64,000 bases of DNA from Thermoplasmata archaeon (GTDB lineage: Archaea > Thermoplasmatota > Thermoplasmata > UBA10834), in contig JAOTTD010000001.1 of assembly GCA_029864565.1 (NCBI GenBank), positions 66,232 through 130,231 of the forward strand. Reading direction: 5' to 3'. A program made the position numbers and the translations under genes. Of this stretch, positions 1 to 22,948 are shown piece by piece. The notes under the pieces are model-generated. The model was not told the DNA's origin. It was given only the letters and a program-made list of their open reading frames with translations, and ran no database searches. Within the stretch, counting starts at the first letter, position 1, and each line of letters starts with the position of its first letter.

Positions 1-1
1 T

Positions 2-1315
2 GCTACCCTTGGCCAGGAGGCCCAGGAAGATGGCTCCGGCCCATGGACCGTCTTCGTATATCTGGACGGAGACAACAACCTTGAAGGATATGCGATTGAC
101 GACCTTCTTGAGATGGAGCAGGTGGGGTCGAAGAACGGTGTGACAATCATCGTTCTGCTGGATACTCTGTCGCTGACGGAAGACACTCACTGGCTCGTAA
201 TCGAGGAAGACGTATCACACTATGATGTGGAGACAGGCGAGCTAGATTGTGACTGTGACTTGTTCCCTGAGCAATCCTGTCCTGAAGAAGTCGACATGGG
301 CGACGGTAACAAGCTTACGTGGGCTGTCGTGACCGCCTTCACGTACGCTCCTGCTGAGAACTACATGCTTGTCCTCTGGGACCACGGCGGTGGGTGGAGA
401 GGCGTGTGCTACGACGACAGCACCATACTTGACTGCGGCTGGGTATCCAGGCTGACCACACCTGAGACCGCTGCCTCCTTGGCGACGGCCCAGGTCGAAC
501 TCAAGAAGCTGGACGAGAATTACAAGCTCACGATCTTGGGCTACGACGCCTGCCTGAATTCGATGATCGAGGTCATCTACGAGAACAGGAACATCGCGGA
601 TTACATGTTCGCATCGATCAACCTCGTGCCCGGGCCGGGAATGGGCTACGCCGGGTTCCTGTCCGTGATGACGCAGTCACCGAGACCGACAGTCGAGGAG
701 GTCGGAAAAGCTGTCGTCGATTCGTATGTGGATTGTTATGAGAACCTGATTTCCGAGACGGGACAGGGCCTAGAGTACTTCGGGGACACGACCCTGTCTT
801 TCGTGCAGCTGGGAGAACGCGTCGGAGAGCTGGTGAATGACATCGATGCACTCGCCAGGGAACTCTTCAAAGGCGGATACTTGAATGACAGCAGGTTCAG
901 AGGAGCGATAGAGTCCGCGGAGTCACAGACCCCGAGGATACCGACGTACGAGGGTGAACACCTGCCATTCGTGGATCTCGGATTGTACGCAGACCTCCTG
1001 GGCCAAAAGATACCTGAGCTCAGCTCGCTGACCGACAAGATAGAGGAAGGTGTTGACGAGGTCGTCGTTTACGAGAGGCATGTCACATCCGCAGGCGGAG
1101 GAATACTGAGAACGACCGGCATATCGATCTACTTCACCTGTTCGTACTACTGGATCAACCCGGCGTACTGGTTCGAGGATATCGAGGATGCGGAACTCTA
1201 CGGTCTGAACACGGTGTATTACGGCATGGCGTTCACCGTTGACACCTTGTGGGACGAGATGGTCTTCACGTTCACCCAGGCCTACGACGAGAGCGTGCTG
1301 GACTTCGAGACATAA
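2..1315 (+). CDS. C11 (clostripain-like) cysteine peptidase, 5'-partial (continues upstream of window)
   Basis: The frame is open from position 2 and translates to ...WTVFVYLDGDNNLEGY..., the C11 N-terminal signature. A LVLWDHGGGW motif and a catalytic-Cys context GYDACLNS follow. It is paralogous to the ORF at 17189-18409. Confidence 0.75.
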   Translation, partial: ATLGQEAQEDGSGPWTVFVYLDGDNNLEGYAIDDLLEMEQVGSKNGVTIIVLLDTLSLTEDTHWLVIEEDVSHYDVETGELDCDCDLFPEQSCPEEVDMGDGNKLTWAVVTAFTYAPAENYMLVLWDHGGGWRGVCYDDSTILDCGWVSRLTTPETAASLATAQVELKKLDENYKLTILGYDACLNSMIEVIYENRNIADYMFASINLVPGPGMGYAGFLSVMTQSPRPTVEEVGKAVVDSYVDCYENLISETGQGLEYFGDTTLSFVQLGERVGELVNDIDALARELFKGGYLNDSRFRGAIESAESQTPRIPTYEGEHLPFVDLGLYADLLGQKIPELSSLTDKIEEGVDEVVVYERHVTSAGGGILRTTGISIYFTCSYYWINPAYWFEDIEDAELYGLNTVYYGMAFTVDTLWDEMVFTFTQAYDESVLDFET

Positions 1316-1767
1316 GCGACAGGAAACTGTGCGGCCCTCAGCCGCACAAACCATTTCCCGTCCCACAAGGCCATGGACGCGGAAAGGCGAGAGGATGCTG
1401 GATTGGTGCAGCTTCTGCTCGCAACCCGTTCAGTCAGGAATGAGATGCCGGTCCAGTTTGCATGTCGTACGACCTGAACATCAGGTTTCACCGTGAAAGG
1501 CGATGACGAGGCCTATACCCCGGTGCAGGAACCCCTTGATTGAGAAAGGGCCAGTTATCGGGTTCCAAAGCCTGCTCAAGGAGGCAAGAGGCTGTAGGAG
1601 CGAACTGAGGGGGATCGGATCCTCGTTGATATGCCCCTTCTGGGGCTGCACATCTGCTGTAGACCAGAGCTTACCCTGCCTATCGTAGATCATAGGATAT
1701 TTCTGCGCAGGCGGATTATCGTGCGCAAGGAGATCCTATTGCGGCTCCTAACGTGTCACCGACGAGG

Positions 1768-2865
1768 TCAACGCCCAGTCCATACAGGGGCTGTCCACGC
1801 AGTCACGCCCTCTTCTCCTGTAACATTCGACGCAGTGGTAACTCTGACATAGAAGTAGTGGGCGCTGTCCGATGTCAGCGTGGTTGTCCATTCGACTGTC
1901 GTGCTGTCGACGCTTTTGCTCGCCACAACCGCTCCGCCGTCAGATACTATCTCGACTAGCTTGATCGCGTCAGCTGCACCATCTGGGTCTGAAAGCTGAA
2001 CCGTAACTTCGTATGTGCTCGTGGGCGACAGAACAGATCCCATGACAGCTCCGTTGAGCGTGTAGTGGACCTGCAAATTCTTGTCCTGCGTCGCATAGCC
2101 CCTGTTGGCCCTCATGGCCTCGTACAGATTTTCGGGGCTCAAACTCGGAGCAAGTAGGACGGTTCTGACCTCTGAGCCCGAGATCCAATTAGCGCTGTGC
2201 GTGTCGGAGTTAGAGGAGGGCATTATGTGCCAGCCAGCGTCCAACGCCATGGTGTAGCTGCCCTCGTAGAATTCATCGTTGTACACCTCGATGATGTTCA
2301 TCCCTGTGTCTCTGTCCTCCGTGTGGTAACTGTAGTTCAGGAAGTCGTCGCTGACATAGAGCGGATGGTTATACTGGCCGATTGCACCCGGCTGCTGGGC
2401 GAGCCAGTCGTAGAACTCAGGGAGTCGGTCCAGTCGATTCAGTAGGGGTCCCGGAGGAAGCTCCCGCGTGTTGAACACGTTGATCTCCCCAAGGTCAGCG
2501 AGCAGCCAGGCCTCGTAGCCTGCCATCGCCACAAACTTCTTGGAGGTGTAGTAATCTGCCGCTGCCAGGAGGTCATTCCACTCTTCTTCAGTGGCTGTCC
2601 AGGCATAATAAGCGTTCCATATCGCTATGTGGTCTGTGATGGCCATGAAGTCCGCCTCTGCATCAATAGCCGCCTCGTAAGCTTCCCACGGGGTGCCTGT
2701 ACCATCAGAGTAGGATGTGTGCGCGTGTAGATCGCCGAAATACAGGTTGTAGACAGTCGTCTTCTCCGTGCCTCCTGCAGAACTTGCGTTCTGGCAGGAG
2801 AATGGCACGATCATAACTGCGACCGCCACGACGAATAGGGCGGCCTGAATTGCCCGGTTGTACAT
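1768..2865 (-). CDS. Secreted PHP-domain metal-dependent phosphoesterase
   Basis: There is an N-terminal hydrophobic signal (AALFVVAVAVMIVPFSC). YFGDLHAHTSYSDG and MAITDH motifs are typical of the PHP / histidinol-phosphatase fold. Confidence 0.65.
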   Translation of the reverse strand: MYNRAIQAALFVVAVAVMIVPFSCQNASSAGGTEKTTVYNLYFGDLHAHTSYSDGTGTPWEAYEAAIDAEADFMAITDHIAIWNAYYAWTATEEEWNDLLAAADYYTSKKFVAMAGYEAWLLADLGEINVFNTRELPPGPLLNRLDRLPEFYDWLAQQPGAIGQYNHPLYVSDDFLNYSYHTEDRDTGMNIIEVYNDEFYEGSYTMALDAGWHIMPSSNSDTHSANWISGSEVRTVLLAPSLSPENLYEAMRANRGYATQDKNLQVHYTLNGAVMGSVLSPTSTYEVTVQLSDPDGAADAIKLVEIVSDGGAVVASKSVDSTTVEWTTTLTSDSAHYFYVRVTTASNVTGEEGVTAWTAPVWTGR

Positions 2866-3216
2866 GTGGTTCCCCCCGTAGCCAAAAGACTACTGACTCC
2901 CCTCAAGGCGAAGGAGAGTAATATATGTTTATGTCCTCCAATTTGGCCGTTGCGTCCTTTTGAATGAGGTGAACGTGAGCAATTCTTCTGTTGGACAGCT
3001 GAGCAGATGCCGACATGCACCGAAGGAAGATTCAGAAAGAGCCCTTCTCGGCACTGAATTCGCCAATCTCATTTCCATCCAGTGTCTCGGACTTAGATCC
3101 CGGCATCGCTCAGGCAGGGGCCGTGGACAAATTTTCAAACTTGTACCACAAACGCCTTATTTGTTCATGCAATGGCCTCAGCAGGACGCGCAGGACGAAT
3201 CACGGAGGAGTAGAGC

Positions 3217-3654
3217 ATGAGAAGGAAGGCATCAGGAGTTATATTGTTTGCAGTTTTCGCCATGTTGGTGATGAGCGCACAGAGCGTGATGGCAGGGGCT
3301 GGATCATTCCAGACGCTAACGGCGTGCCTCAAGGAAAATCCTGGGGAGCCCTTGGGCACGGCAGTCTATTCGTCGTGGGAAAAAAACGGTAGGAGTACGC
3401 TGGAGATAACGGTCGCTGCTACAGGGGATTACGAAGGAACGTACTGCATCTACATCATCGATCTTGACGGCGAGAAGACGCTGTTGGAACCGACGCTCTT
3501 TGTCGATGACACGGGCGCAGGCTCGCTCATGCTGGACACCTGGTTGGAGGACGTAATCCCGCCTATCGCCTCGGAATGGAAAATATCCCTTAAAGAATGC
3601 GGTTACGGTCCCCCCGACGTTGACAGGATAGTGCTCTGCGGCAAGTTCATGTAG
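3217..3654 (+). CDS. Small secreted hypothetical protein (signal peptide)
   Basis: The N-terminus MRRKASGVILFAVFAMLVMSAQSVMAGAG is a signal peptide. A GGAGG sequence lies about 8 nt upstream. Acidic composition looks protein-like. Confidence 0.5.
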   Translation: MRRKASGVILFAVFAMLVMSAQSVMAGAGSFQTLTACLKENPGEPLGTAVYSSWEKNGRSTLEITVAATGDYEGTYCIYIIDLDGEKTLLEPTLFVDDTGAGSLMLDTWLEDVIPPIASEWKISLKECGYGPPDVDRIVLCGKFM

Positions 3655-4077: not shown

Positions 4078-4129
4078 CGATGACTTGACGTGAGGCAATT
4101 GGGCAGGATTGCGGCTCGCATATGCTGGC

Positions 4130-7763: not shown

Positions 7764-8052
7764 TTCATGATATCTTGAAGCTGGGAGACGCAGAACGGCG
7801 GCCGATGTCACGCTGGGCGCCATCGCAAGAACGGGGTCTGCACCGTTAGTCAGTACCGCTCATTGCGCAAAGTTCGTATAGTGCGCAACTGTTCATTGGT
7901 TGGAGAGAGCGCTTTACATTTGTTCGATTGCAGGGGAGACAAAGAACCGCGCGGCCGAGCCCAAGATCCGTGCGTCTGCGAGGCTCGGCCGAAACACTCC
8001 CTTTGACGCAGACGACGCGCCCTCTTTCGACCAGGGGAGGAGGAAATTCGAG

Positions 8053-13229: not shown

Positions 13230-14140
13230 CTCCTCAACCCCTTCATGCGCGGGTCCAGCACGTCCCGCAGACCGTCTCCCAACAGGTTGAAGCCAAGGAT
13301 TGTGGCGACCATCGTGACTCCCGGGAAAGTAGATATCCAGGGGGCGTTGCCAAGGTAAAGTATGCCGCTCGACAGCATCCAGCCCCAGCTGGGCGTGGGT
13401 GGCTTCGTGCCGACACCGAGGAAGCTCAGGCTGCTCTCGATCGTGATTGCATCGGCTACGCCTATAGACGCCCAGACAATCAGGGGGGCGATGCAATTCG
13501 GGAGCACATGGGTGAACATGAGCCTCCAGTGCCTGGCACCGAGCGCCCTGCTCGCCTCAACGAACTGCCTCTCCCTCATCGAGAGCGCCTGCCCGCGCAT
13601 CAGCCTCGCGAAACCCGCCCAGTACGATATCGATATGGCGAGTATCACATTCATCAGACCTGCACCGAGGGCCGCGGCGAAAGCGAGCGCCAGTAGAAAC
13701 GGCGGGAAGGTCCAGAACAGGTCGATTGTGCCGGATATTATGTAATCGACCTTGCCGCCGAAATATCCAGCGGTCAAGCCGAGGACGATACCAATCATCA
13801 TTGAGACGACAACCGCGACCATGGCGACCGTGAGAGAGACTCTCGCGCCCCAGATGACCCTGCTGAAGACATCTCGCCCGTTCTCATCCGTGCCAAACCA
13901 GTTCTCAGACGACGGGGAAAGGAGCTGCTGGCCAGGCTCAAGATTCTGTTGGGTAGGGTCCGCAATCGGGAGCACAGGTGCGAGGAGGGCGATTGATATG
14001 ATGATCACGATCATCGTGAAACCAATCACGACCATCGGGTTCCTGCCACCTCTTTCGAGTATGCCCGCGAGGGTCTGCCTGACTCCGCCGGCCATCTTCC
14101 AGGCCAGCAGCTTGTCGTTCAAAGCCTTCCTCAACCTCAT
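13226..14140 (-). CDS. Peptide ABC transporter permease (OppC/DppC-like)
   Basis: It is polytopic. An N-terminal region is followed by ...ENGRDVFSRVIWGARVSL... and the EAA-like loop EASRALGARHWRLMFTHVLPN. Confidence 0.85.
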   Translation of the reverse strand: MRLRKALNDKLLAWKMAGGVRQTLAGILERGGRNPMVVIGFTMIVIIISIALLAPVLPIADPTQQNLEPGQQLLSPSSENWFGTDENGRDVFSRVIWGARVSLTVAMVAVVVSMMIGIVLGLTAGYFGGKVDYIISGTIDLFWTFPPFLLALAFAAALGAGLMNVILAISISYWAGFARLMRGQALSMRERQFVEASRALGARHWRLMFTHVLPNCIAPLIVWASIGVADAITIESSLSFLGVGTKPPTPSWGWMLSSGILYLGNAPWISTFPGVTMVATILGFNLLGDGLRDVLDPRMKGLRR

Positions 14141-15078
14141 CCGAGCCTCACCCGCGGATCCACGTATGCGTACAGTATGTCAGCGAACAGATTTCCTGCA
14201 ATCACGAAGAAGGCCAGTACCAGAATGCATCCCTGCACCACGGGGAAATCGCTGTTAGATATGGACGTGGTTATGAGCATCCCTATACCTGGCCATTGGA
14301 AGACGGTCTCGACAACGACTGACCCGCCGATGAACCATCCAATGTCCAGGCCAATGACGGTTATGACTGGGAGGATGGCGTTCTTCAGCGCGTGCCTGTA
14401 TATGATCTCCTTCTCGGGTAGGCCTCGGGAGCGTAGCTGAGTGATGTAGTCCTGGCGTATCACCTCCAACATGCTTGACCGCATCATCCTAGTTGTCAGC
14501 GCTGCGTTTCCTAAGCCGAGAGTCATAGCAGGGAGTATGATACTGCCGAACCCTCCAGTAGTCCCCTCTATTGGCAGCCACCCGAGCTCCACTGCGAACA
14601 GCAGCATGAGCAGTATGCCGAGCCAGAACGAAGGCATGGCGTAGGCGAGCAGTGTGAAAACCATGACGCTCCTGTCCCCGAGTGTGTTGTGCCTCAAGGC
14701 TGAGAATACCCCAAGGGGAATGCCGAGTGAGTAAGACATCCCCAGGCCTATGCCCATCAGCTCCAATGTCCTGGGCAGCCTCTGGACTATCAAGCCGGAG
14801 ACATCGAGATTCCTGGTCGCCGCGCCAATGGAGATCCCGAGGTCGCCGTGCACCAGCCGCCACAGGAATAACCCGTACTGGACATAGGGGGGGTCGTTCA
14901 AGCCATACTTGTCCCTGATGGCGTCCAGTTCCTCAACGGACGCGTGAGGCGGCGCCAGGGCGGTTATGGGGTCCCCTGGGGTCAGGTACAACATCAGGAA
15001 CACTATCAGAGTAGCCAGTAAGATGATCGGTATAGCCAGCAGCATCTTCCTGATGACGTATGAGGCGAGGTCGGCCAA
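14137..15078 (-). CDS. Peptide ABC transporter permease (OppB/DppB-like)
   Basis: It is polytopic. The EAA loop IRQDYITQLRSRGLPEKEIIYRHALKNAILPV is present. It overlaps the downstream gene by 4 nt. Confidence 0.85.
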   Translation of the reverse strand: MADLASYVIRKMLLAIPIILLATLIVFLMLYLTPGDPITALAPPHASVEELDAIRDKYGLNDPPYVQYGLFLWRLVHGDLGISIGAATRNLDVSGLIVQRLPRTLELMGIGLGMSYSLGIPLGVFSALRHNTLGDRSVMVFTLLAYAMPSFWLGILLMLLFAVELGWLPIEGTTGGFGSIILPAMTLGLGNAALTTRMMRSSMLEVIRQDYITQLRSRGLPEKEIIYRHALKNAILPVITVIGLDIGWFIGGSVVVETVFQWPGIGMLITTSISNSDFPVVQGCILVLAFFVIAGNLFADILYAYVDPRVRLG

Positions 15079-15205: not shown

Positions 15206-16933
15206 CTACTTCTCTATGTCGACGTCCACTATGTTGATGACTTGCTCCTGTCCGAGCGGGTTGACAGCCCATCCGGGGTCGCCCTTGAACGTCACATAGT
15301 TGTGGACCGCGAATATCTGGTGCCAGAATACTAGCGGAGTCCACGCGGCCTGTTCCAGCAACCGTATGTGCGCCGCAGTCGCGTTGTCTGAGAATTCCTG
15401 CTCGGTCTCCGCATATGTCCAGTTGGTCACGTAGTCGTCGAACACGTCGTCAATATACCATCCGGTGTTGGACCCTCCAGCAGCCCACGTGCCGAAGTGC
15501 CAGTCCAGTATCTCGGCCCTCGGCCAAGAGTACCAGAACAGGATGGCTTCCTGGCTGCCTTCCGAGGCCATGTCTCTGAGCTGCGTCTCGGCGTACGGGG
15601 TGAGCGTGACGTGGACTCCGACATCCTCGAACTGCTCCTGGACTATCTCGCCCATCTGGATGTCCTCGCCCTTGTTCGTCGTCCAGAGGTCCAAGGACAG
15701 CTCTCCCGAGGCGTTCTCTAGCCATCCGTCGTCGTCTGTGTCCGTGAATCCGGCAGCTTCGAAGAGATCCATCGCCTTGTCGACATCATACGTGTAGTTG
15801 TACTCCGCCGCGACGTTGTACGATTCGGGCTCGATTGGCGAGAGCAGGTTCACACCCTCCTCGGCGAGGCCATGCCAGACCGTGCTTACAATCTGAGCCC
15901 TGTTCACGGCGTAGCAGAATGCTTTACGGAGCGTCGGGTTGTCCCACGGGTCCTTCTGGCAGTTGAATTCGACATGGTATGTGCCCTGGCCCGGTCCCGT
16001 GATCACGGTGAGGGCGGAATCGTCCTCATACGCCTGCACCTTGCTTGGAGGCACCTGCTGCAAGACGTCTATCGCACCACTCTCGAACCCGGCGAACCTC
16101 GTGGCCTGGTCCGTGATGATCCTGTAGATTATCTTGTCTATATTCGCGGGGCCCTTGTTCTCATACCATGAGAAACCCCAGTCGTAGTCCGGGTTCTTGA
16201 CGAGGGTGATGTGATCTCCGGGGATCCACTCATCGAGCATGTACGGTCCTGTCCCGACGACCTTTCCATTGGCGGTGCCGTACAGGTCCAGACCATCCTC
16301 TTCGAGCGCGTCCGGGCCCATCATCGAACCGTACAGGTGCGAGAGGTTGAACTGCAGGGCCACATCTGCCCACGTCAGGTTCAGGACCATGTTGTAATCG
16401 TCCTTGCACCATATGCCAGCGTCTGGCCAACCGGTCTTGTTCTCGCAGCCGTAGATGGCCCAGAACTCGTACTGGACCCAGCTGTCGTCCTGGGCGTAGT
16501 AGTTGATTATCCTCTTCACCGCGTCCGTGTCGAATGGCAGCCCGTCATGGAACTTTACACCCTGTTTCAGCCGGATCTCGAAAGTCGGGTGGTCCGGGTC
16601 CGTCCGGTTCATGTTCCACCACTCGGCAAGCCCATCGGCGTAGTCGCCGTTCAGGTCCCTCGTGATGAGAGTTTCGTAGATCAAGCCGGGCGGGCCATAC
16701 ATCGCGCTGGTCTTGGCAGGATCCATGGCCTGTACGTCGGAGCTCATAGCTACGACCAGGACTTTCTCGTCGCTCTCCCCTCCCAACAGTCCGAAGGCCC
16801 ACGCACCCGCGAGACCTGCGACTAAGAGGACCACGACGATTACGGCCGCGATTAGAGCCCTGCTCTGCGGGCGGCCGGGTCGTGCCTTCGGTTGTGCAAC
16901 TCCACTCCCAGATTCACTCTCTGAACTCCCCAC
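15206..16933 (-). CDS. ABC transporter substrate-binding protein, family 5 (peptide/nickel), N-terminally membrane-anchored
   Basis: At 575 aa it is the size of a peptide SBP. A TM anchor (LIAAVIVVVLLVAGLAGAWAF) follows a Ser/Glu-rich tail. It heads the opp-like operon. Confidence 0.8.
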   Translation of the reverse strand: MGSSESESGSGVAQPKARPGRPQSRALIAAVIVVVLLVAGLAGAWAFGLLGGESDEKVLVVAMSSDVQAMDPAKTSAMYGPPGLIYETLITRDLNGDYADGLAEWWNMNRTDPDHPTFEIRLKQGVKFHDGLPFDTDAVKRIINYYAQDDSWVQYEFWAIYGCENKTGWPDAGIWCKDDYNMVLNLTWADVALQFNLSHLYGSMMGPDALEEDGLDLYGTANGKVVGTGPYMLDEWIPGDHITLVKNPDYDWGFSWYENKGPANIDKIIYRIITDQATRFAGFESGAIDVLQQVPPSKVQAYEDDSALTVITGPGQGTYHVEFNCQKDPWDNPTLRKAFCYAVNRAQIVSTVWHGLAEEGVNLLSPIEPESYNVAAEYNYTYDVDKAMDLFEAAGFTDTDDDGWLENASGELSLDLWTTNKGEDIQMGEIVQEQFEDVGVHVTLTPYAETQLRDMASEGSQEAILFWYSWPRAEILDWHFGTWAAGGSNTGWYIDDVFDDYVTNWTYAETEQEFSDNATAAHIRLLEQAAWTPLVFWHQIFAVHNYVTFKGDPGWAVNPLGQEQVINIVDVDIEK

Positions 16934-17188: not shown

Positions 17189-18409
17189 CTATTCGAAGCC
17201 CCAGTAGGTCTGCAGGAACTCCCACCAGCCCATATTCGGGAACTCGAATGTCATGTAGGTTTCGTACCCACCCCACTCCGAATCGGCATATGCGATCGTG
17301 TATGAGCTGTGGCTCGCAGGGAAGGTTATGCCCATGCCATTGTACCCGTACAGCTCGCTGTTCTTGGCGGTTCCCATGCCCAGCATAGCCTCTCCGTACG
17401 CGTCCAAGACGGCCTCGCACGCCGCGTACGCGGGGTCACCCTTCTTCACGTTCTCCATGATCTGCTCAACGAAGGAGGGCATGTCGATCCAGCTCTCGCC
17501 GCGAGCGCCCCACGGAATGATGGAGCTCCGCTGGGCGGCGCCAATAATCTGCCGGTAGGAGTCGATATCGCCCGCCAGTGTGCCCGCCATCGCCGTGACC
17601 GCCTCTCCGAGCGCCGCGATCTTCGACATGTTGAATATCGACTGCGTCGTCAGCATCTCGCTCATGTACGGCGGCTGGTTGAACAGGTTCGTGAACTCCT
17701 CGACGATGATCGTGCAGAGCTCGAGCGCCTCCATCTCCGGGTTCAATATGAGCCTCTGGACGATCTTGTCGTACGAGAATCCGCGCCATCCGATGTAGCT
17801 CTCGCTCGCGACCATATAGTCGACACTCAACCCGTTCGACACGTACTCGTACAGGGTCTCCATCTGGCCTATCGAGCACTCGTCGCAGGCGATGATGTCC
17901 ATGTGATAGCCTTCCAGAGCGGCCATCATCTCGTGGTGCGACAGCCAGTCCCAGCTGGTTCCCGGCTCGTCGCCTTCCATCGTCGTGTCCACGCCAACGC
18001 CGCCCGTGGGCGTGCCATGGTCCCAGAAGAACAGCAGCATGTGCTCCGCCGGGAAGTACGTGTCGCTGTACTCGACGAAGTCCGTCAGCGTCGCAGGGTC
18101 GCCCATGTTGACCTCGCCCAGACTCTTGAGTTCGACCATCTCATGGTCTTCGATGCAGTACAGGTATGCGGGCTCGTACAATCTGTCGACCAGGACCAAG
18201 ACGTTCACTGAGGCGCTGGAGTCGCCGTCCTTTAGTTCCTGGAAGTCCTCCTCGGTGTACGGGTCAAGGTCGTTGTCCGCGACAAGATACACGAGCACCG
18301 ACCACTCGGCGACATCCCTCGCTTCCTCATCCGCCGCCTCGCTCGGCAAGTCCTCCGTCCCCACGGCACTCAAGCCTGCGAGCAGAGAAGCGACGAACAA
18401 AGCCGTCAC
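17189..18409 (-). CDS. Secreted C11 (clostripain-like) cysteine peptidase
   Basis: It has a signal peptide (MTALFVASLLAGLSAVG). The motifs WSVLVYLVADNDL, LLFFWDHG and IIACDECSIGQMETLYE match the paralog at 2-1315. Confidence 0.8.
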   Translation of the reverse strand: MTALFVASLLAGLSAVGTEDLPSEAADEEARDVAEWSVLVYLVADNDLDPYTEEDFQELKDGDSSASVNVLVLVDRLYEPAYLYCIEDHEMVELKSLGEVNMGDPATLTDFVEYSDTYFPAEHMLLFFWDHGTPTGGVGVDTTMEGDEPGTSWDWLSHHEMMAALEGYHMDIIACDECSIGQMETLYEYVSNGLSVDYMVASESYIGWRGFSYDKIVQRLILNPEMEALELCTIIVEEFTNLFNQPPYMSEMLTTQSIFNMSKIAALGEAVTAMAGTLAGDIDSYRQIIGAAQRSSIIPWGARGESWIDMPSFVEQIMENVKKGDPAYAACEAVLDAYGEAMLGMGTAKNSELYGYNGMGITFPASHSSYTIAYADSEWGGYETYMTFEFPNMGWWEFLQTYWGFE

Positions 18410-18597
18410 TGATACACTGATGATTGCCTTTGATCTCTCGTAGGGAATAATCCCCTCACCCCCAAAGTTCAGAGCTGGAAGTGTGCCCGCAACTTATTAC
18501 CCTTTCCATACTGACTATATAAGCTGTGAAGAGTGAGTCGGCCCGCAATCCTTTGGGGATAGCACAGCCCAGTCATCAGAATCAGATTCCTTGAGCG

Positions 18598-20622
18598 TCA
18601 GTATGTGACCAGCTCGATGGATTTCAGGTCTTGAACGAACCGAAGGACATTCTTGTGGTCGGTCGGGCCGTACTCGGCAGAGACGAATTCCGTGATATCG
18701 GCGAGAGAGCGTCTTCCGTCCATGAGATTGACGACCTCATACATCTTCCTCGTGAATTGGGGATCCTTCGTCTCGACTTTTCCATACCATCCGTACCTCT
18801 CCTCGCCAAGCTTCTCAGACATGAGGTCGGCGTCGAGCGTGCCCTTGAACCTTCTTCGGGGGACAATCGCCTTCGCCTCCTTCTCAGCTTTCGACAATCT
18901 CATCGCCCCGCGTTTGACGGATGCACGGCCATCGGACACAGCAACGATGATACTGTCGAGTCTGAGCTGCTCCCTCGAGCCGTGCTCTTCGACCGCCTCC
19001 GCCTGCGATTTGACAAAATCGTCTGACCCCGCCGCCTTATCGAGCCTTCTGACAGATAGCACCGCACGCACCTCTCTTCGGACGGAGTGTCTGACTCTCA
19101 ACCCATGGTATTGCGCGACCCTGTTAAACTCGACTCCATTGTCGGAGGGATCAAATGCCTCGTAGAGTTCCATCGCGGCAGCTTCGACTGCTTCGGAAAT
19201 CCTTCTGATGCCCTCAGAGCAGACCAGGATGGCCAGTTTGCGAACCATTCTCGAATCGGCACTGGCGAGAGTCAACGCAGAGGTGGCGGCCGCCCATCCT
19301 ACTCGTCGCAGGCTGTCCTCGCTCACGTTGTCGATCGTGTCCATGCTCGTGTGATAGAACAGGTCTGGCCACTGCGTCAGGCTCACACATGGGACTCCAA
19401 CCGTGGACTCGTTGAACTCCGCGTGGTCGCTCCCACCAGTGAATTGCGTCCTCGTGTATCTGAAGTTGCCCGGGATGCCGAGCTTGACCATGCTGTCGTA
19501 TTCGGAGTTCGAGCGCCCCATCATGGAGTACACGAGGTCGTTCAGGTACGACGGCATCGTATCCGGCGTGCAATCCATGCACAGGGTGGACTTGCACCGA
19601 GCCTGATCCTCACCCACCATGTCCATGTTGATTCCGGCAACGAGCCTCTTGTGCAGCTCAGGATGCTTCGACAGGTACGCCACGCTTCCGACCGTCTCAG
19701 GGACCCAGAGGAGCCGGATTGTACGCCTCGGCCTCTTGATCTTGCCTGAGGCGACCAGAGAAGTGATCGTCCTAGCGAGCTCGAGTAACAGGCCGCTGCC
19801 CGACGCGTTGTCGTTGGCGCTCGGCTTGGGGTGACAGAGGTGGGCGACGAGGACTATCTCCTCGTCGGGCATGTCCGAACCGCGGAACGTGCAGGTCACG
19901 ACGCTGTATCTCCCGGGCGATAGGTCGGCATCCACCTTGGCGTGTAATCGGACAGGTTTGGCGCTGCGCAGAAGGTCCCTGAGCTCGTTCCCCTGACGCT
20001 TGCTGAGAGAGAAGCCAAACTTGATCTTGCCCGCGCTCTTAGCGTTCGGCCATATACCCTGATACGAGTGGGCGTCCGGTATGTCGATGCTCTCACGAAC
20101 TCCTGGGAACTCGTACGTCAGGCTGTCAGTAATGACGCCGGCGGCGCCACGCTTGACGACTGCCTCGTGCTGAACCGTCTTACCCTTGCCTGTGGTCAAC
20201 ACGAACTTGCCCTTGACGCTTTTCCCCGCATAGTCCTCATCAGACAAGCCCTTTCCGACGTCCACCAGCTCGGCGGTCACGCCCTGCTTCGGCGTGCTTC
20301 GGCTGAACGTGTGGAGGGATTGTGGCACTTCCTCGTGCCTCGCTAGCACGCGGACGTCGGGCTCCACGAGTGACAGTTCTGCGCTTCTCACGTCCCATCC
20401 CATCACGGACGTGTAGGTCCAGTACTTCCGACGGCCATCAGCGGGGTAGTGCTCGATGGTGGCATCTTCCATGCCCATCTTGACCAGCTCCTCCTTCACG
20501 TAGACTGCCGCATCGCGCATCATCGGCGATCCCTGTATCCGGTGGAATTCCGTCAAGCCGGCTACGTAGCTCTTGGCAGAAGACCCCGACAGTTCGTCTT
20601 TCACAACCTTCCCGAGTTCCAT
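18598..20622 (-). CDS. M28-family zinc peptidase with PA domain and C-terminal winged-helix-like region (no signal peptide)
   Basis: Zn-ligand contexts (VLVAHLCHPKPSANDNASG, GINMDMVGED, FTGGSDHAEF) show the aminopeptidase fold. A PA-like insert and a roughly 200-aa C-terminal extension are present. Confidence 0.65.
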   Translation of the reverse strand: MELGKVVKDELSGSSAKSYVAGLTEFHRIQGSPMMRDAAVYVKEELVKMGMEDATIEHYPADGRRKYWTYTSVMGWDVRSAELSLVEPDVRVLARHEEVPQSLHTFSRSTPKQGVTAELVDVGKGLSDEDYAGKSVKGKFVLTTGKGKTVQHEAVVKRGAAGVITDSLTYEFPGVRESIDIPDAHSYQGIWPNAKSAGKIKFGFSLSKRQGNELRDLLRSAKPVRLHAKVDADLSPGRYSVVTCTFRGSDMPDEEIVLVAHLCHPKPSANDNASGSGLLLELARTITSLVASGKIKRPRRTIRLLWVPETVGSVAYLSKHPELHKRLVAGINMDMVGEDQARCKSTLCMDCTPDTMPSYLNDLVYSMMGRSNSEYDSMVKLGIPGNFRYTRTQFTGGSDHAEFNESTVGVPCVSLTQWPDLFYHTSMDTIDNVSEDSLRRVGWAAATSALTLASADSRMVRKLAILVCSEGIRRISEAVEAAAMELYEAFDPSDNGVEFNRVAQYHGLRVRHSVRREVRAVLSVRRLDKAAGSDDFVKSQAEAVEEHGSREQLRLDSIIVAVSDGRASVKRGAMRLSKAEKEAKAIVPRRRFKGTLDADLMSEKLGEERYGWYGKVETKDPQFTRKMYEVVNLMDGRRSLADITEFVSAEYGPTDHKNVLRFVQDLKSIELVTY

Positions 20623-20764
20623 GGTCAGACCGAACGAGGCTACTACGTTCCTTAGATAAAAGAACGTTCCCGTGGACTCGAACAGTAGCGCTCTTCGCTT
20701 GAGGAAAAATCAGAAGGCCCTCCGGCGTCGCGCTTCAGCCAGAGGGAGCTTCATGCAACTGTTT

Positions 20765-22948
20765 TCACTGCAGGACGGCTTCTAGAGGTGCAGTGGCGTT
20801 CCCCCACTCCACTTCGAGTTTCAGTACATCCTCCATGAACCAATCCTCGAGCGTCTGGCGGTCGTATTCGAGGTCGTCCAACGCCTCCTCCGCCGTCATC
20901 GATCCGTCCTTGAGGCCCAGATAGACGTCCTGGATATCGATGTAGCTCTGTGCCTGGTCGAAATCGTCGCCCCAGTACATGAAGCAGTCCATCATCTGGC
21001 CGTAGACGTCCAAGTACGCTTCCCTGCCGCAGTAGATGCCCCACTCCATGCTTCGCACGCTCTTCAATGCGGTCGCAGCCGCGCCGGTCGCGCCGCTTTC
21101 GAGCGCAAGCATGGCCGACATGACGGCTTTGTGGTCAGTCGCGTGCTGGTGAGGTCTCATGAGTGGCTCCCACGAGGCCATCATGCCTCCCTCGCCCATC
21201 GTCCACGGGATGAATATCCTCCTCGCGTCGATGACGGCGCGGTTCAGCTCGTCCGCCATCTCCACCACTTTCGCTTTCTTCTGCGGGGACATCGCGGAGG
21301 CGTACATCGCCTCAATCTCCGCGGCCCTCGCATTGATGGAGACATATAGGCTCTCGAGGTCTGTGAGAACTGCCAAGGCAGCGTCAATGGTAGAGCGCTG
21401 AGACGGCACCATGGGTCTCTCCTTCGCGAGGTTCTGAGCGGCCCAGCCACACACAGGCACGAAATCCAGCGGCAGCAGGAGCGCGTTCACCGACCTGAAG
21501 GCCATCAAAGCGGTGAGCTCCATCACCATGGCCAACATGTCCTCTGACTGCAGTTCGATGTCGTCGATCTGGGTATGATAGTACGGATCGAATCCCGCTC
21601 CCCACACCATCTCTATCGCAGTCCCTCCGCCCTTGCCCGCGAACGACCACGCGTCGGTCCAGGTCCAAACAGGCGTGTAGCAGTTCAAGACGTTCCGATA
21701 TCCCAGGTCGGAGATGGCGCTCCACACGAACGCGGAGGCCTCGATGGAGATCTCCAGCCACACCTTCCCTCCCGTCTTCGGGAAGCTGCCGCCATCGATG
21801 TTGAGCTCCAATACGAGGCCGTCCATGATATCGGGATGGGCGCATACGAATTCGTACGAGCCGATTAGCCAGTTGAACCACGTCCCGTCAGCACCGCCGC
21901 TCTCCTCCGAGCCGACCGAGCAGAACACCAAAGTCCTCTCGTTCACGTACTCGCGTGATTCTCTGGCTTCGGAGAACATCCTAGCCATCTCAAGCATGAT
22001 GGCGATGGATGAGCAGTCGTCGAACGAGCCCGCCCACCATGTGTCGATGTGGCCGGAGATGACAACGTATTCGTCAGCTCGAGTCGTGCCCAACAGAACG
22101 CCGGCGACATTCACGGATTTGGCATTTGGATAGAAGTCCACCTGGCCGGACATCTCCAGTTCGATATCGCCGTCGTACTCCTCCAGCAACGCCTGTATCC
22201 TGGCTGCGGAGTTGGGCGATATCGATATCGCCGGGATTGGCGAGAACACTGAGTCCTGCTTGATGCCCTCGGGGTGGTCGGCACCCGTGAAGTAGCCGTA
22301 GAACACGACAGCCGAGGCGCCGTGATACGCCGCCTCCGACGCTGGCACGTTGGGCCATCCCTGAGTGTTGTCCTCTCTGTGGACAAGGGCGATCGCCCCG
22401 TCAAGAGGGCCGGCCTGATCGAAATCATCGGCAGTCCCATAGCCCACATCGACGACCTTGGCAGTGAGTGTCTTCCTGTCGTCGCTATTTCCGTAAGCAT
22501 AGAGCGTGCCGTTGTCGTAGCCCCAAACCGACGGTGAATCGCCGTATGTGGTCGCATCGATGCTCTCAAGCTCGCCATCGGGCAGTACTATGTCCACCGT
22601 CGTCCCGTTATGGTCCCAGTTGGCCACTCGGAATGTCTCCCACCACACTTCGACCAGAGGCATCTCGGACAGCTGATCATACACGTATTGCTGGGCAGCG
22701 AGCTCCTCCTCCGACCCTGCAGTCTTCTCACCGAGGCCGGATAGATACTCAAGCTGAGCCCACGCATGTTCGTAGTCGAGTCTCTCGAGCAATGCAATCT
22801 CGCCATCGGTCAGGTTCTTCGGCTTCTGAGTGCCGATAGTCGGCATGCCGTAAGTCACTGGCATCGCTATGACGATTGCGAAAGTCAACGCTAATCCTAT
22901 TCCAACTAGTTTGCGAATCGGTTTCCCCCCTTGGCATAACCCCGACAT
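20765..22948 (-). CDS. Membrane-anchored M28/PA-domain peptidase (transferrin-receptor/PSMA-like architecture)
   Basis: There is an N-terminal TM segment (LVGIGLALTFAIVIAMPV). A PA-like region and M28 metal-binding motifs follow (VVISGHIDTWWAGSFDDCSS, FCSVGSEESGGADG, YYHTQID). A helical domain lies at the C-terminus. Confidence 0.65.
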   Translation of the reverse strand: MSGLCQGGKPIRKLVGIGLALTFAIVIAMPVTYGMPTIGTQKPKNLTDGEIALLERLDYEHAWAQLEYLSGLGEKTAGSEEELAAQQYVYDQLSEMPLVEVWWETFRVANWDHNGTTVDIVLPDGELESIDATTYGDSPSVWGYDNGTLYAYGNSDDRKTLTAKVVDVGYGTADDFDQAGPLDGAIALVHREDNTQGWPNVPASEAAYHGASAVVFYGYFTGADHPEGIKQDSVFSPIPAISISPNSAARIQALLEEYDGDIELEMSGQVDFYPNAKSVNVAGVLLGTTRADEYVVISGHIDTWWAGSFDDCSSIAIMLEMARMFSEARESREYVNERTLVFCSVGSEESGGADGTWFNWLIGSYEFVCAHPDIMDGLVLELNIDGGSFPKTGGKVWLEISIEASAFVWSAISDLGYRNVLNCYTPVWTWTDAWSFAGKGGGTAIEMVWGAGFDPYYHTQIDDIELQSEDMLAMVMELTALMAFRSVNALLLPLDFVPVCGWAAQNLAKERPMVPSQRSTIDAALAVLTDLESLYVSINARAAEIEAMYASAMSPQKKAKVVEMADELNRAVIDARRIFIPWTMGEGGMMASWEPLMRPHQHATDHKAVMSAMLALESGATGAAATALKSVRSMEWGIYCGREAYLDVYGQMMDCFMYWGDDFDQAQSYIDIQDVYLGLKDGSMTAEEALDDLEYDRQTLEDWFMEDVLKLEVEWGNATAPLEAVLQ

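What the first reader, a model, noticed from the sequence alone, without database searches (positions are those of the whole stretch)
1..22948. 23-kb extracellular proteolysis island: two C11, one S8, two M28/PA peptidases and a PHP phosphoesterase flanking a complete peptide ABC importer
Within 23 kb the window encodes six predicted secreted or membrane-anchored hydrolases, each with an N-terminal signal or anchor, flanking one five-gene Opp/Dpp-type importer:
- a PHP phosphoesterase at 1768-2865;
- a subtilase at 8053-11166;
- two clostripain-like C11 peptidases at 2-1315 and 17189-18409;
- two PA-domain M28 aminopeptidases at 18598-20622 and 20765-22948;
- the importer (SBP-B-C-D-F) at 11225-16933.

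The arrangement resembles a protein utilisation locus, analogous to polysaccharide utilisation loci but aimed at external protein. The aguA-aguB pair in the middle may extend substrate use to arginine-derived amines.

The two C11 paralogs (WDHG motif conserved, catalytic-Cys contexts GYDACL vs IIACDEC) look duplicated and diverged.
Basis: partly seen in the sequence, partly recalled or inferred. Interest (0 to 1): 0.55.

Follow-up and report, generated by a model that had tools for sequence, protein, structure and literature searches.

The report
Archaeal secreted-protease and peptide-importer cluster
An uncultured sediment archaeon (Thermoplasmata, Ca. Gimiplasmatales) keeps genes for several secreted protein-cutting enzymes next to a peptide-type importer; this gene set is already known for the group, but the secreted enzymes share a conserved upstream DNA element that suggests joint regulation.

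Summary
All genes are at the stated coordinates and the family calls hold: two C11, one S8, two M28-type proteins, a PHP-fold hydrolase and a five-gene Opp/Dpp-type ABC importer.

Corrections:
- The window is archaeal. Its closest relatives are order UBA10834 (Ca. Gimiplasmatales).
- M28a (18598-20622) has no signal peptide and is a DUF4910-type, probably cytoplasmic, protein.
- C11a's N-terminus lies outside the window.
- The PHP protein is a CehA/McbA-family metallohydrolase.
- The C11 and M28 paralogs are ancient (20-28% identity).
- aguA/aguB look like polyamine biosynthesis genes.

The cluster extends at least 4.5 kb past the left edge (M42 peptidase, third C11). It is enriched in peptidase genes: 7 of 24 genes, against 0 of 36 in the rest of the window.

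It is not a conserved unit, an operon or a horizontally acquired island. Relatives carry shuffled sub-blocks: C11b+Opp, S8+M28a+M28b, C11+M28.

An 8-base element, AGTCAGTA, often fused to a TATA box, lies upstream of C11a, PHP, S8, C11b and M28b and of their orthologs. It is absent before Opp, M28a and the housekeeping genes. This points to a secreted-hydrolase regulon.

The biology is already published for this clade, so interest is modest.

The parts
2..1315 (+). C11a: clostripain-family cysteine peptidase, 5'-truncated by the window edge. Full length is 464 aa on the source contig, with a signal peptide.
   Evidence: Pfam PF03415 E 5.6e-44. His (WDHGGG) and Cys (YDACL) align to 6N9J and 9CIP. 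Full gene at L020 11551-12945 with N-terminus MRRTPTCVLITGLLLSASMALTG. AGTCAGTA lies 55 nt upstream, at L020 13000-13007.
1768..2865 (-). Secreted or anchored PHP-fold metallohydrolase of the CehA/McbA family. Not a peptidase; substrate unknown.
   Evidence: NCBIfam NF038032, 110.5 bits against cut-off 80, covering residues 42-363. Pfam PHP 28.7 bits. PDB sequence hits cover only the N-terminal HxH motif. Hydrophobic N-terminus, H = 2.83.
2891..2898 (-). AGTCAGTA element 26 nt upstream of the PHP start codon
   Evidence: Also present before PHP orthologs in L007 and L019.
7848..7855 (+). AGTCAGTA element about 198 nt upstream of the S8 start. An invariant TATA-like GTATAG follows at 7876-7885.
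   Evidence: Present at -188 to -209 before S8 orthologs in L025, L027, L029 and L030.
8053..11166 (+). S8 subtilase, 1037 aa: signal peptide, propeptide region, catalytic domain, and a C-terminal extension of about 540 aa with no domain match
   Evidence: Pfam PF00082 E 2.2e-41. Best solved relative is Tk-SP of Thermococcus kodakarensis (3AFG, E 3.3e-25), with DTG, HGT and GTSMAAP aligned. The ortholog in L025 starts at the equivalent ATG. N-terminal H = 2.66.
11225..12241 (-). OppF-type ATPase
   Evidence: ABC_tran + oligo_HPY. The 338-aa gene call is from the source contig.
12234..13229 (-). OppD-type ATPase. Overlaps OppF by 8 nt and OppC by 4 nt.
   Evidence: ABC_tran + oligo_HPY. Gene call.
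13226..14140 (-). OppC-type permease
   Evidence: BPD_transp_1 + OppC_N. Four TM-like segments detected by the hydropathy scan.
14137..15078 (-). OppB-type permease
   Evidence: BPD_transp_1 + BPD_transp_1_N.
15206..16933 (-). OppA-type substrate-binding protein (cluster C, family 5) with an N-terminal membrane anchor. It has its own TATA-like box at 17049-17057. Substrate cannot be assigned from sequence.
   Evidence: SBP_bac_5 E 7.2e-70. PDB relatives bind peptides, glutathione, nickel, heme or agrocinopine. Anchor H = 3.35. TATA box.
17189..18409 (-). C11b: clostripain-family cysteine peptidase. It possibly starts at ATT 18451, which would give a classic signal peptide.
   Evidence: PF03415 E 5.5e-36. 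Dyad FWDHGT / ACDEC aligned to 9CIP and 6MZO. NCBI already names the identical protein 'clostripain-related cysteine peptidase'. A conserved Ile codon lies 4 nt after a GGTGAG box in 7 orthologs.
18509..18522 (-). TTATATAGTCAGTA promoter element about 100 nt upstream of C11b
   Evidence: TAGTCAGT is the only invariant block across 13 orthologous upstream regions (A1). At most one mismatch to the 11-mer TATAGTCAGTA in 15 of 17 orthologs, at -84 to -124.
18598..20622 (-). M28a: cytoplasmic DUF4910-type M28-like protein with a PA-like insert and a C-terminal winged-helix/PqqD-like domain. It lacks the canonical HxD and EE motifs.
   Evidence: DUF4910 7.3e-22, M28 1.1e-21, HTH_47 and PqqD weak. 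Best PDB hits are 3K9T and 2EK8, with CHP...NDNASG...PETVGS. No hydrophobic N-terminus, also not in L025. No AGTCAGTA upstream.
20765..22948 (-). M28b: secreted or anchored PA-domain M28 metallopeptidase of the glutamate carboxypeptidase II / transferrin-receptor type
   Evidence: M28 E 2.4e-16, PA 23.3 bits. Best PDB hits are GCPIII, NAALADase-L, TfR and 2EK8. Motifs GHIDT, DDCSS, SEESG, NIDG and YYHT are present. N-terminal H = 2.67.
22976..22989 (-). TTATGTAGTCAGTA promoter element 28 nt upstream of M28b
   Evidence: The same position carries the element in L011 (exact) and in L025, L019 and L006 (2-3 mismatches to the 11-mer TATAGTCAGTA).

Best explanation
The region is a lineage-specific, mosaic cluster of separately transcribed genes in an uncultured Thermoplasmata archaeon. 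Its closest relatives belong to order UBA10834, Ca. Gimiplasmatales. Together the genes encode the parts of an extracellular protein-scavenging pathway.

Proposed pathway:
1. Secreted endopeptidases cut external protein. These are an S8 subtilase and C11 clostripain-like enzymes. The C11s keep Asp two residues before the catalytic Cys, which predicts cleavage after Arg/Lys.
2. A secreted PA-M28 exopeptidase trims the fragments.
3. An Opp/Dpp-type ABC system imports the peptides.
4. Cytoplasmic aminopeptidases finish hydrolysis. These are the M42 TET-type enzyme just outside the window and perhaps the DUF4910-type M28a.

The unit of coordination is probably a regulon, not an operon or a conserved locus. 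C11a, C11b, S8, M28b and the secreted CehA/McbA-type PHP hydrolase each carry AGTCAGTA in the sense orientation upstream, often fused to a TATA box as TTATATAGTCAGTA. Their orthologs in diverged genomes keep it at the same positions. The most likely reading is a transcription-factor site or specialised promoter element.

Shown: gene content, catalytic residues, hydrophobic N-termini, clustering, partial synteny and motif conservation.
Inferred: secretion, substrates, nutritional role and regulation.
For: Families and active-site residues.

Signal-like N-termini for PHP, S8, OppA, C11b, M28b, C11a and C11c, but not for M28a or M42.

Archaeal origin and taxon:
- TBP and PolB are present.
- Relatives include MAGs UBA10834, UBA9653 and SG225.bin4.
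- Those MAGs are classified as o__UBA10834.

Published RNA-SIP evidence that Ca. Gimiplasmatales incorporate 13C from protein, with C11 and S8 listed for these MAGs: PMC9123169.

Cluster extension (M42, third C11) and enrichment (7/24 against 0/36 genes, p = 9e-4).

Recurrent sub-blocks:
- C11b+Opp at about 90% identity in L005.
- A paralogous long-SBP Opp next to C11b in L006, L012, L015 and L022.
- S8|M28a|M28b|MttB in L025.
- C11+M28(+S51) in L031 and L032.

Motif:
- 4 exact copies in the window (shuffle mean 1.33) and 4 in L020 (shuffle mean 0.52; 0 of 100 shuffles reach 4). Together these are 6 distinct copies over the 72-kb stretch, all sense-upstream of signal-bearing genes.
- 27 of 31 exact copies in 461 kb lie no more than 260 nt upstream of ORFs; for 24 of these a hydrophobic N-terminus was scored (H >= 1.9), and the other three are S8 or C11b orthologs whose called ORF start or sequence (run of N) prevented scoring.
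- TAGTCAGT is the only invariant block in 13 C11b upstream regions.
- Position is conserved before S8 and M28b orthologs.
- It is also present before C11, M28 and S51 genes in L032.
Against: - Nothing here shows expression, secretion or activity.
- Signal peptides were judged by a hydropathy heuristic, not by SignalP.
- OppA's solved relatives bind peptides, glutathione, nickel, heme and opines, so a peptide substrate is only the most common case.
- The importer and M28a lack the shared element.
- The cluster is interrupted by unrelated genes (TBP, DUF5788, aguAB).
- Three relatives show no clustering around C11b, and more distant orthologs sit in another context.
- Much of the neighbourhood conservation includes unrelated genes (MttB, ArsR, beta-propeller). 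It therefore partly reflects plain synteny among relatives.
- Yin et al. 2022 caution that extracellular peptidase genes alone do not predict catabolic protein use.
- The loci used for the motif census were chosen around C11b and S8 orthologs, so the counts are not a genome-wide sample.
- The motif's position relative to TATA-like boxes varies.
Confidence: 0.6

Rival explanations
1. Neutral juxtaposition. These archaea carry many peptidase and Opp genes, and rearrangements have by chance placed several side by side in this lineage. The genes act and are regulated independently, and the cluster has no functional meaning.
For: - Gene order is shuffled in relatives and absent in L008 and L013/14.
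- The C11b position differs in distant orthologs.
- Each gene has its own promoter-like box.
- Unrelated genes are interspersed.
- Neighbouring non-proteolytic genes (MttB, ArsR, beta-propeller) are conserved alongside.
Against: - Enrichment of 7/24 against 0/36 genes.
- C11b lies next to two different Opp paralogs in six loci.
- C11-M28 pairing recurs for other paralogs.
- The secreted members share a conserved upstream element.
Confidence: 0.22
2. The secreted hydrolases serve non-nutritional roles, such as maturation or turnover of cell-surface proteins, anabolic amino-acid scavenging or defence. The ABC system then imports something other than peptides (nickel, opine-like compounds or oligosaccharides).
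For: - AGTCAGTA also precedes non-peptidase surface proteins: orf249 with thrombospondin-type repeats and a 1742-aa secreted protein in L004. It therefore marks a secretome subset rather than peptidases only.
- OppA's relatives have mixed ligands.
- Yin 2022 notes abundant extracellular peptidases in archaea that do not catabolise protein.
Against: - RNA-SIP labelled Ca. Gimiplasmatales from 13C-protein.
- No glycoside hydrolase or nickel enzyme is nearby.
- Cytoplasmic aminopeptidases (M42), two class-III aminotransferases, an aldehyde dehydrogenase and an aldehyde:ferredoxin oxidoreductase lie on the same contig.
Confidence: 0.15
3. A horizontally acquired genomic island that carries a proteolysis cassette.
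For: GC is slightly higher at 8-22 kb (0.58-0.61 against 0.55-0.58 elsewhere). The C11b+Opp block is present here but absent from the same site in L025.
Against: - No tRNA gene in the window, and no integrase among the ORFs scanned.
- Repeats were not searched.
- All members have 60-90% identical orthologs in the same archaeal order.
- The composition shift is within the window's normal range.
Confidence: 0.03

Closest known systems
Predicted extracellular proteolysis of sedimentary archaea (Thermoprofundales/MBG-D, Ca. Gimiplasmatales, Ca. Proteinoplasmatales; Zhou 2019 PMC6461988, Yin 2022 PMC9123169; also Lloyd et al. 2013, from memory, paper not held)
   Same: Same gene inventory: signal-bearing C11, S8 and M28 peptidases plus Opp/Dpp ABC transporters, aminotransferases and AOR. 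Same clade: SG225.bin4 (L005) is one of the published MAGs, and C11 and S8 are listed for it or for its sister MAG.
   Different: Those papers count families per genome. In the passages and papers I searched they describe neither physical clustering nor a shared promoter element.
Lactococcus lactis proteolytic system and CodY regulon (own knowledge)
   Same: A cell-envelope S8 subtilase with a long C-terminal extension, an Opp importer and intracellular peptidases. Dispersed or partly clustered genes are coordinated through a short shared operator, not through one operon.
   Different: That system is bacterial. It has no C11 or PA-M28 enzymes, and the regulator and operator (CodY box) are known. 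Here the element AGTCAGTA has no known binding protein, and the importer does not carry it.
Bacteroidota polysaccharide utilisation loci (PULs)
   Same: Secreted hydrolases are co-located with an uptake system for the products.
   Different: There is no SusC/SusD pair, no dedicated sensor or regulator in the locus, no co-transcription and no conserved locus structure. The target is protein, not glycan.
Thermococcales peptide fermentation (Tk-SP/pyrolysin S8 proteases, Opp-type transporters, TET/M42 aminopeptidases; own knowledge, plus PMC12516491 for TET diversity)
   Same: The best solved relative of the S8 is Tk-SP (3AFG). An M42 TET-type aminopeptidase is adjacent. AOR and aminotransferases lie on the same contig.
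   Different: This organism is a presumably mesophilic sediment Thermoplasmata. C11 enzymes dominate here, and no clustering has been reported for Thermococcales.
Clostripain / PmC11 family (MEROPS C11; PDB 9CIP, 6MZO, 6N9J, 3UWS/4YEC)
   Same: The His-Cys dyad and the Asp two residues before Cys are conserved in C11a, C11b and C11c.
   Different: Far below the clostripain equivalog score (about 52 against 550 bits). The C-terminal domains are different and archaeal. The activation cleavage site was not examined.

Membership tests
Peptidase family C11 (clostripain family) | Pfam PF03415 above the gathering score, and catalytic His and Cys in the conserved H-G and D-x-C contexts | tested here: met
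   C11a 151.6 bits, C11b 125.3 bits (cut-off 25.8). WDHG and DAC/DEC align to clostripain 9CIP, 6MZO and 6N9J. C11c has IWDHG and FDAC.
Peptidase family C11 (clostripain family) | Arg/Lys specificity and autocatalytic activation cleavage | not testable with these tools
   Only the Asp at Cys-2 is seen. It is the S1 determinant in PmC11 and clostripain (own knowledge). No activity data are available.
Peptidase family S8 (subtilases) | Asp-His-Ser triad in the order D, H, S within PF00082 | tested here: met
   142.5 bits. VLDTGCD, DGHGTATAG and GGTSMAAP align to Tk-SP 3AFG.
Peptidase family M28 | Co-catalytic zinc ligand set: HxD, bridging D, EE, D/E, H | tested here: met
   M28b has GHIDT, FDDCSS, GSEESGG, LNIDGG and PYYHTQ, aligned to GCPIII and NAALADase-L.
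Peptidase family M28 | The same ligand set in M28a | tested here: not met
   M28a has AHLCHP (no HxD) and PETVGS (ET in place of EE), as in the DUF4910 structure 3K9T. It belongs to the M28 fold, but a canonical active site is not shown.
Secreted or anchored protein (Sec signal or N-terminal anchor) | N-terminal basic n-region followed by a hydrophobic h-region | tested here: inconclusive
   Hydropathy heuristic only. Clear for PHP, S8, M28b, OppA, C11a (off-window) and C11c. C11b is hydrophobic without a basic n-region unless it starts at ATT 18451. Absent in M28a and M42. No SignalP was available.
Opp/Dpp (PepT, TC 3.A.1.5) ABC importer | Family-5 SBP, two permeases (one with OppC_N) and two ATPases with the oligo_HPY C-terminal domain, all adjacent | tested here: met
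   The B/C/D/F genes overlap by 4-8 nt.
Opp/Dpp (PepT, TC 3.A.1.5) ABC importer | Peptide as the transported substrate | not testable with these tools
   Solved relatives of OppA bind peptides, glutathione, nickel, heme or agrocinopine. NCBIfam best hits (NikA, Opp4A) are all far below their cut-offs.
CehA/McbA family metallohydrolase (PHP fold) | NCBIfam NF038032 above its cut-off over the full domain, with the N-terminal HxH metal motif | tested here: met
   110.5 bits against 80, residues 42-363. DLHAHT aligns to PHP phosphoesterases. Phosphoesterase activity is not established.
Polysaccharide-utilisation-locus-like 'protein utilisation locus' | Outer-membrane SusC/SusD-type pair, or an equivalent dedicated binding and uptake pair, co-transcribed with the hydrolases | tested here: not met
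   No such genes are present. Each hydrolase has its own promoter-like box, and M28b has a terminator-like T-run.
Polysaccharide-utilisation-locus-like 'protein utilisation locus' | Locus structure conserved in relatives, with a dedicated regulator in the locus | tested here: not met
   Only sub-blocks recur. There is no regulator inside; the nearest is an ArsR-type gene at 25770-26450.
Regulon with a shared cis-element | The same short element upstream of several functionally related genes, conserved in orthologous promoters and rare elsewhere | tested here: met
   AGTCAGTA precedes PHP, S8, C11b, M28b, C11a and orthologs. Whole genomes could not be scanned.
Regulon with a shared cis-element | A binding factor and co-expression | not testable with these tools
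   No expression or binding data are available.
Horizontally acquired genomic island | Composition anomaly, integrase or tRNA at the border, foreign phylogeny | tested here: not met

The most novel reading that the evidence does not exclude
AGTCAGTA, typically TTATATAGTCAGTA, is the operator or specialised promoter element of a dedicated regulator. That regulator switches on or off a secretome regulon of extracellular hydrolases (C11, S8, PA-M28, S51, a CehA/McbA-type PHP enzyme and a few large surface proteins) across Ca. Gimiplasmatales and neighbouring Thermoplasmata. Physical clusters such as this one would be assembled secondarily by rearrangement. That would be the first cis-regulatory signature for extracellular proteolysis in uncultured sediment archaea. 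It would allow the regulon, and thus the real protein-degrading machinery, to be predicted from genomes.
Probability: 0.4. Interest if true: 0.55.

Novelty: new member of a known kind. Interest (0 to 1): 0.33.

Why it matters
Burial or remineralisation of detrital protein in sediments depends on who secretes peptidases and when. Gene counts alone have proved poor predictors (Yin 2022). The cluster itself adds little: the same families are already listed for this archaeal order, and the order has been shown by isotope probing to use protein.

Two points could matter. First, C11 genes lie repeatedly next to Opp-type importers and M28 genes. Second, one upstream element is conserved before unrelated secreted hydrolase genes. 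If that element is regulatory, it gives a sequence handle to define the co-regulated extracellular proteolytic set in uncultured archaea. It would also help to find its regulator and to design expression and binding experiments.

Tried and rejected
- Rfam and tRNA scans of the window found nothing.
- Bacterial origin was rejected after finding TBP and PolB.
- 'Recent duplication' of the C11 and M28 pairs was rejected at 20-28% identity.
- A single operon M28b-M28a-C11b-Opp was considered because all eight genes are on the minus strand. It was judged unlikely: the gaps are 127-255 nt with AT-rich promoter-like boxes, and a hairpin plus T5 run follows M28b. This is inference only.
- The phrases 'protein utilization locus/loci' and 'peptide utilization locus/loci' do not occur in the paper library.
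- Lloyd et al. 2013 could not be read.
- A genome-wide peptidase density could not be taken from Yin 2022's tables beyond example rows. An illustrative Poisson figure was computed under an assumed peptidase density and is not relied on.
- The PDB sequence search gave no informative relative for the PHP protein beyond the HxH motif.
- Structure prediction, fold search and the large representative-protein search were not used. Family assignments were already clear, and they would not have addressed the locus question.
- The sigma-70 promoter scanner was not used because the organism is archaeal.
- A first k-mer count double-counted reverse complements. It was replaced by direct searches.

Full report
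**1. What is encoded**

Pfam confirms the families:

| Gene | Coordinates | Pfam result |
|---|---|---|
| C11a | 2-1315 (+) | Peptidase_C11, E 5.6e-44; truncated by the window edge |
| PHP | 1768-2865 (-) | PHP, 28.7 bits |
| aguA-like | 5473-6468 | PAD_porph |
| aguB-like | 6533-7414 | CN_hydrolase |
| S8 | 8053-11166 (+) | Peptidase_S8, 2.2e-41 |
| OppF, D, C, B, A | 11225-16933 (-) | two ABC_tran+oligo_HPY, two BPD_transp_1, one SBP_bac_5 |
| C11b | 17189-18409 (-) | Peptidase_C11, 5.5e-36 |
| M28a | 18598-20622 (-) | Peptidase_M28 and DUF4910 |
| M28b | 20765-22948 (-) | Peptidase_M28, plus PA at 23.3 bits, just under the 23.9 cut-off |

Interspersed genes are a TATA-binding protein (4155-4703), a DUF5788 protein (4903-5388) and a small signal-bearing ORF (3217-3654).

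NCBIfam refines the PHP protein to a CehA/McbA-family metallohydrolase (110.5 bits, cut-off 80). The aguA/aguB-like pair best match agmatine deiminase and N-carbamoylputrescine amidase, both below the equivalog cut-offs.

**2. Active sites**

- C11a and C11b align to clostripain-family structures (9CIP, 6MZO, 6N9J). The catalytic His lies in WDHG and the Cys in DAC/DEC. The Asp two residues before the Cys is kept. In PmC11 and clostripain this Asp sets Arg/Lys specificity (own knowledge).
- The S8 protein aligns best to Tk-SP of Thermococcus kodakarensis (3AFG, E 3.3e-25), including the propeptide region and the DTG, HGT and GTSMAAP motifs. It carries about 540 extra C-terminal residues with no domain match.
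- M28b has the full M28 ligand set. Its nearest solved relatives are glutamate carboxypeptidase II/III, NAALADase-L, transferrin receptor and the PA-M28 aminopeptidase 2EK8.
- M28a is different. Its best match is the DUF4910 'putative peptidase' 3K9T. It shares that protein's CHP...NDNASG...PETVGS motifs in place of HxD and EE. It has a PA-like insert aligned to 2EK8 and a weak C-terminal winged-helix/PqqD-like match.

**3. Signals**

SignalP was not available, so I used a hydropathy and charge heuristic with cytoplasmic proteins as controls.

- Clear N-terminal signal or anchor segments: PHP, S8 (from ATG 8053; the L025 ortholog starts at the same ATG), OppA and M28b. Off-window, C11a and C11c also have them.
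- None: M28a (also not in L025) and the M42 peptidase.
- C11b: it starts at the first canonical codon (GTG 18409) with a hydrophobic stretch but no basic n-region. Some orthologs (e.g. L004, L006, L009, L012) have classic signal peptides.

In the window and in L003, L004, L005, L008, L010 and L015, an Ile codon (ATT/ATA) is conserved 4 nt after a GGTGAG Shine-Dalgarno-like box, 42 nt upstream of the GTG. Starting there would give M/IIPYERSKAIISVSV..., a normal signal peptide. This is an inference.

Overall, five of the six hydrolases are probably exported, and one of those can be verified only outside the window.

**4. Organism and prior knowledge**

- TBP and a family-B polymerase show an archaeon.
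- The window is part of ENA contig ERZ27296442:k141_865516 (131,937 bp).
- C11b orthologs at 61-77% identity come from Thermoplasmata MAGs, including UBA10834, UBA9653 and SG225.bin4. These are classified as order UBA10834, Ca. Gimiplasmatales, with GC 57.6% as here.
- NCBI already annotates the identical C11b as 'clostripain-related cysteine peptidase'.
- Zhou et al. 2019 list C11, M28 and Opp systems in Thermoprofundales.
- Yin et al. 2022 show by RNA-SIP that Ca. Gimiplasmatales incorporate carbon from 13C-protein. They list C11 and S8 genes for these very MAGs, and they warn that peptidase gene counts alone do not predict catabolic protein use.
- The gene inventory and its ecological reading are therefore already known.
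- In what I searched, the physical clustering and its regulation are not described. The phrase 'protein utilization locus' is absent from the library.

**5. Extent and significance of the cluster**

On the source contig the cluster continues left of the window. It holds an M42 (TET-type) aminopeptidase, a ferredoxin-domain protein and a third signal-bearing C11 (C11c). Two further signal or anchor proteins and a MarR-like gene follow.

None of the 30 large ORFs scanned in 23-64 kb is a peptidase. With post hoc boundaries, 7 of about 24 genes against 0 of about 36 gives Fisher p = 9e-4.

GC content is unremarkable, and there is no tRNA or integrase. It is not a horizontally acquired island.

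**6. Comparative genomics**

The cluster is not conserved as a unit.

- Of nine loci with full 10-kb flanks around C11b orthologs, six have M28a, M28b, C11c or an Opp-type system within 10 kb, in varying order. Three (L008, L013, L014) have only unrelated neighbours: P-type ATPase, restriction-modification methylase, MFS and Na/H exchanger.
- Orthologs at 50-58% identity (L022-L024), and also L015, sit between a squalene-cyclase-like ORF and a DDAH/arginine-deiminase-fold gene, next to TauE-AFOR-ABC-PKD. In the window these genes lie at 33-44 kb without a C11. C11b has therefore been relocated in this lineage.
- The closest S8 relative (L025, 88% identity) has S8 | PD40 protein | M28a | M28b | MttB. 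This is the window's order without the 7.2-kb Opp+C11b block.
- L005 has C11b+OppABCDF (Opp about 90% identical) in another context.
- A second, paralogous Opp system has a long SBP (SBP_bac_5+PKD+CarboxypepD_reg). It lies 0.2-5.5 kb from C11b in L012 (directly downstream, same strand), L006, L015 and L022.
- Other C11 paralogs are again beside M28 genes. L031 has two C11 and two M28 in 15 kb. L032 has C11, M28 and S51 adjacent.

C11-Opp and C11-M28 proximity therefore recurs with different paralogs. This argues for a weak selective pull rather than a fixed locus. Unrelated neighbours (MttB, ArsR, beta-propeller) are conserved too, so part of the pattern is ordinary synteny.

The paralogs are old: C11a/b 28%, C11c/b 25% and M28a/b 20% identity.

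**7. Transcription units and a shared element**

OppB, C, D and F overlap by 4-8 nt and are probably co-translated. OppA, C11b, M28a and M28b are separated by 127-255 nt containing AT-rich TATA-like boxes. M28b is followed by a hairpin plus a T5 run. Separate transcription units are likely, though this is an inference.

A k-mer comparison of upstream regions turned up AGTCAGTA.

Copies in this genome:
- In the window there are four exact copies (shuffle mean 1.33). All are sense-oriented and upstream of signal-bearing hydrolase genes: PHP (26 nt before the ATG), S8 (about 198 nt), C11b (about 100 nt, as TTATATAGTCAGTA) and M28b (28 nt, as TTATGTAGTCAGTA).
- The contig extension adds copies before C11a and before a thrombospondin-repeat surface protein. 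L020 has 4 copies, with 0.52 expected and 0 of 100 shuffles reaching 4.

Copies across all sequence:
- Over 461 kb of window plus loci, 27 of 31 exact copies lie no more than 260 nt upstream, in sense orientation, of ORFs. For 24 of them a hydrophobic N-terminus was scored (H >= 1.9). The other three are S8 (window, L029) and C11b (L017) orthologs whose called ORF start or a run of N prevented scoring.
- In an alignment of 13 C11b upstream regions, with proteins down to 52% identity, TAGTCAGT is the only invariant block.
- The element keeps its position before S8 orthologs (-188 to -209; L025, L027, L029, L030).
- It keeps its position before M28b orthologs (-38 to -49; L011, L025, L019, L006).
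- It also occurs before PHP orthologs (L007, L019) and before C11, M28 and S51 genes in the distant L032.

It is absent, with at least 4 mismatches to the 11-mer, before OppA, M28a, M42, C11c, aguA/B, TBP, MttB and ArsR. The flanks differ between genes, so it is not a dispersed repeat.

Caveat: the loci were selected around C11b and S8, so this is not an unbiased genome census. The position relative to TATA-like boxes also varies: adjacent in C11b and M28b, about 25 nt upstream in the window's S8, and near the predicted start site in PHP. A transcription-factor site is the best reading. A specialised core-promoter element or a 5'-leader signal are alternatives.

**8. Most likely mechanism**

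1. Secreted S8 and C11 endopeptidases cut external protein. The C11s are predicted to be Arg/Lys-specific.
2. The PA-M28 exopeptidase trims the fragments.
3. The Opp-type system imports the peptides.
4. M42, and perhaps M28a, hydrolyse them in the cytoplasm.

Downstream amino-acid catabolism is plausible from the class-III aminotransferases, the aldehyde dehydrogenase and the aldehyde:ferredoxin oxidoreductase on the same contig.

Coordination is probably through a regulon marked by AGTCAGTA and limited to the secreted members. The role of the secreted CehA/McbA-type PHP enzyme is unknown. It shares the element and recurs near C11b in L004, L005, L007, L009 and L019. The aguA/aguB pair is best read as putrescine biosynthesis, not as an extension of the island.

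**9. Verdict**

- The 'protein utilisation locus' reading holds only loosely.
- The biology is already published for this clade.
- The clustering tendencies and the shared promoter element are new details of moderate interest, and they need genome-wide and experimental tests.

Noticed in passing
window 18449-18465 (-), and the equivalent positions in L003, L004, L005, L008, L010, L015: C11b orthologs keep an Ile codon (ATT/ATA) 4 nt after a GGTGAG Shine-Dalgarno-like box, 42 nt upstream of the annotated GTG. Several of them have no ATG in between. A non-canonical start there would restore a normal signal peptide (IIPYERSK...).
   Followed up: partly
window 31540-32937 (-) and 24309-25748 (+): An MtmB-family ORF (monomethylamine methyltransferase family) of 465 aa is read through with no in-frame stop, so it has no pyrrolysine codon. 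It has no NCBIfam match. An MttB-superfamily gene lies nearby, and MttB paralogs recur next to the cluster in relatives. This fits the non-methanogenic MttB genes reported for order UBA10834.
   Followed up: partly
window 33007-33774 (-); L015 11291-12091; L023 11226-11981; L024 11339-12094: In L015, L023 and L024 a DDAH/arginine-deiminase-fold gene (best NCBIfam match for the window's copy: dimethylargininase, below cut-off) lies directly downstream of the C11b ortholog. In the window it stands alone, 14 kb from C11b. This is a possible link between an Arg-specific peptidase and a guanidino-group enzyme.
   Followed up: partly
window 44759-49565 (-), 35401-36558 (-), 62068-63348 (+): Several amino-acid and polyamine-type genes share the contig with aguA/aguB: two class-III aminotransferases (GABA- or acetylornithine-transaminase-like), a methylmalonate-semialdehyde-dehydrogenase-type aldehyde dehydrogenase, a carboxynorspermidine-synthase-like gene and argininosuccinate synthase. 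Whether agmatine or putrescine is made or consumed is open.
   Followed up: no
window 25770-28349 (-): An ArsR-type winged-helix protein with two predicted membrane segments lies next to a signal-bearing PF09826 beta-propeller protein. The pair is conserved beside M28 or C11b genes in L011 and L012; in L003 only the ArsR gene (cut by the contig end) is seen, beside M28a. It is a candidate sensor-regulator for the neighbouring secreted genes. This is untested.
   Followed up: no
window 29532-31433 (-): A 633-aa protein has 12 predicted membrane segments, and only its central part resembles OppC/DppC permeases. Homologs at 23-27% identity lie near C11b orthologs in L017, L023 and L024.
   Followed up: no
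window 3217-3654 (+): A 145-aa signal-bearing protein with no family match lies between the PHP gene and TBP. It is called as a gene on both source contigs.
   Followed up: no
L004 4591-9819 and L005 4527-9809: A secreted protein of about 1750 aa, with only a weak NIDO-like hit, lies directly upstream of C11b in two relatives. In L004 it is preceded by AGTCAGTA.
   Followed up: partly
L025 4612-5601; L009 8650-9627; L011 8818-9807: A membrane-anchored PD40 (TolB-like beta-propeller repeat) protein of about 329 aa sits next to S8, M28 or C11b in relatives. In L025 it occupies the site where the window has the Opp+C11b block.
   Followed up: no
window 7900-8052 (+): The public gene call for the S8 protein (1088 aa, TTG 7900) is probably 51 codons too long. 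The signal peptide and the L025 ortholog begin at ATG 8053.
   Followed up: yes
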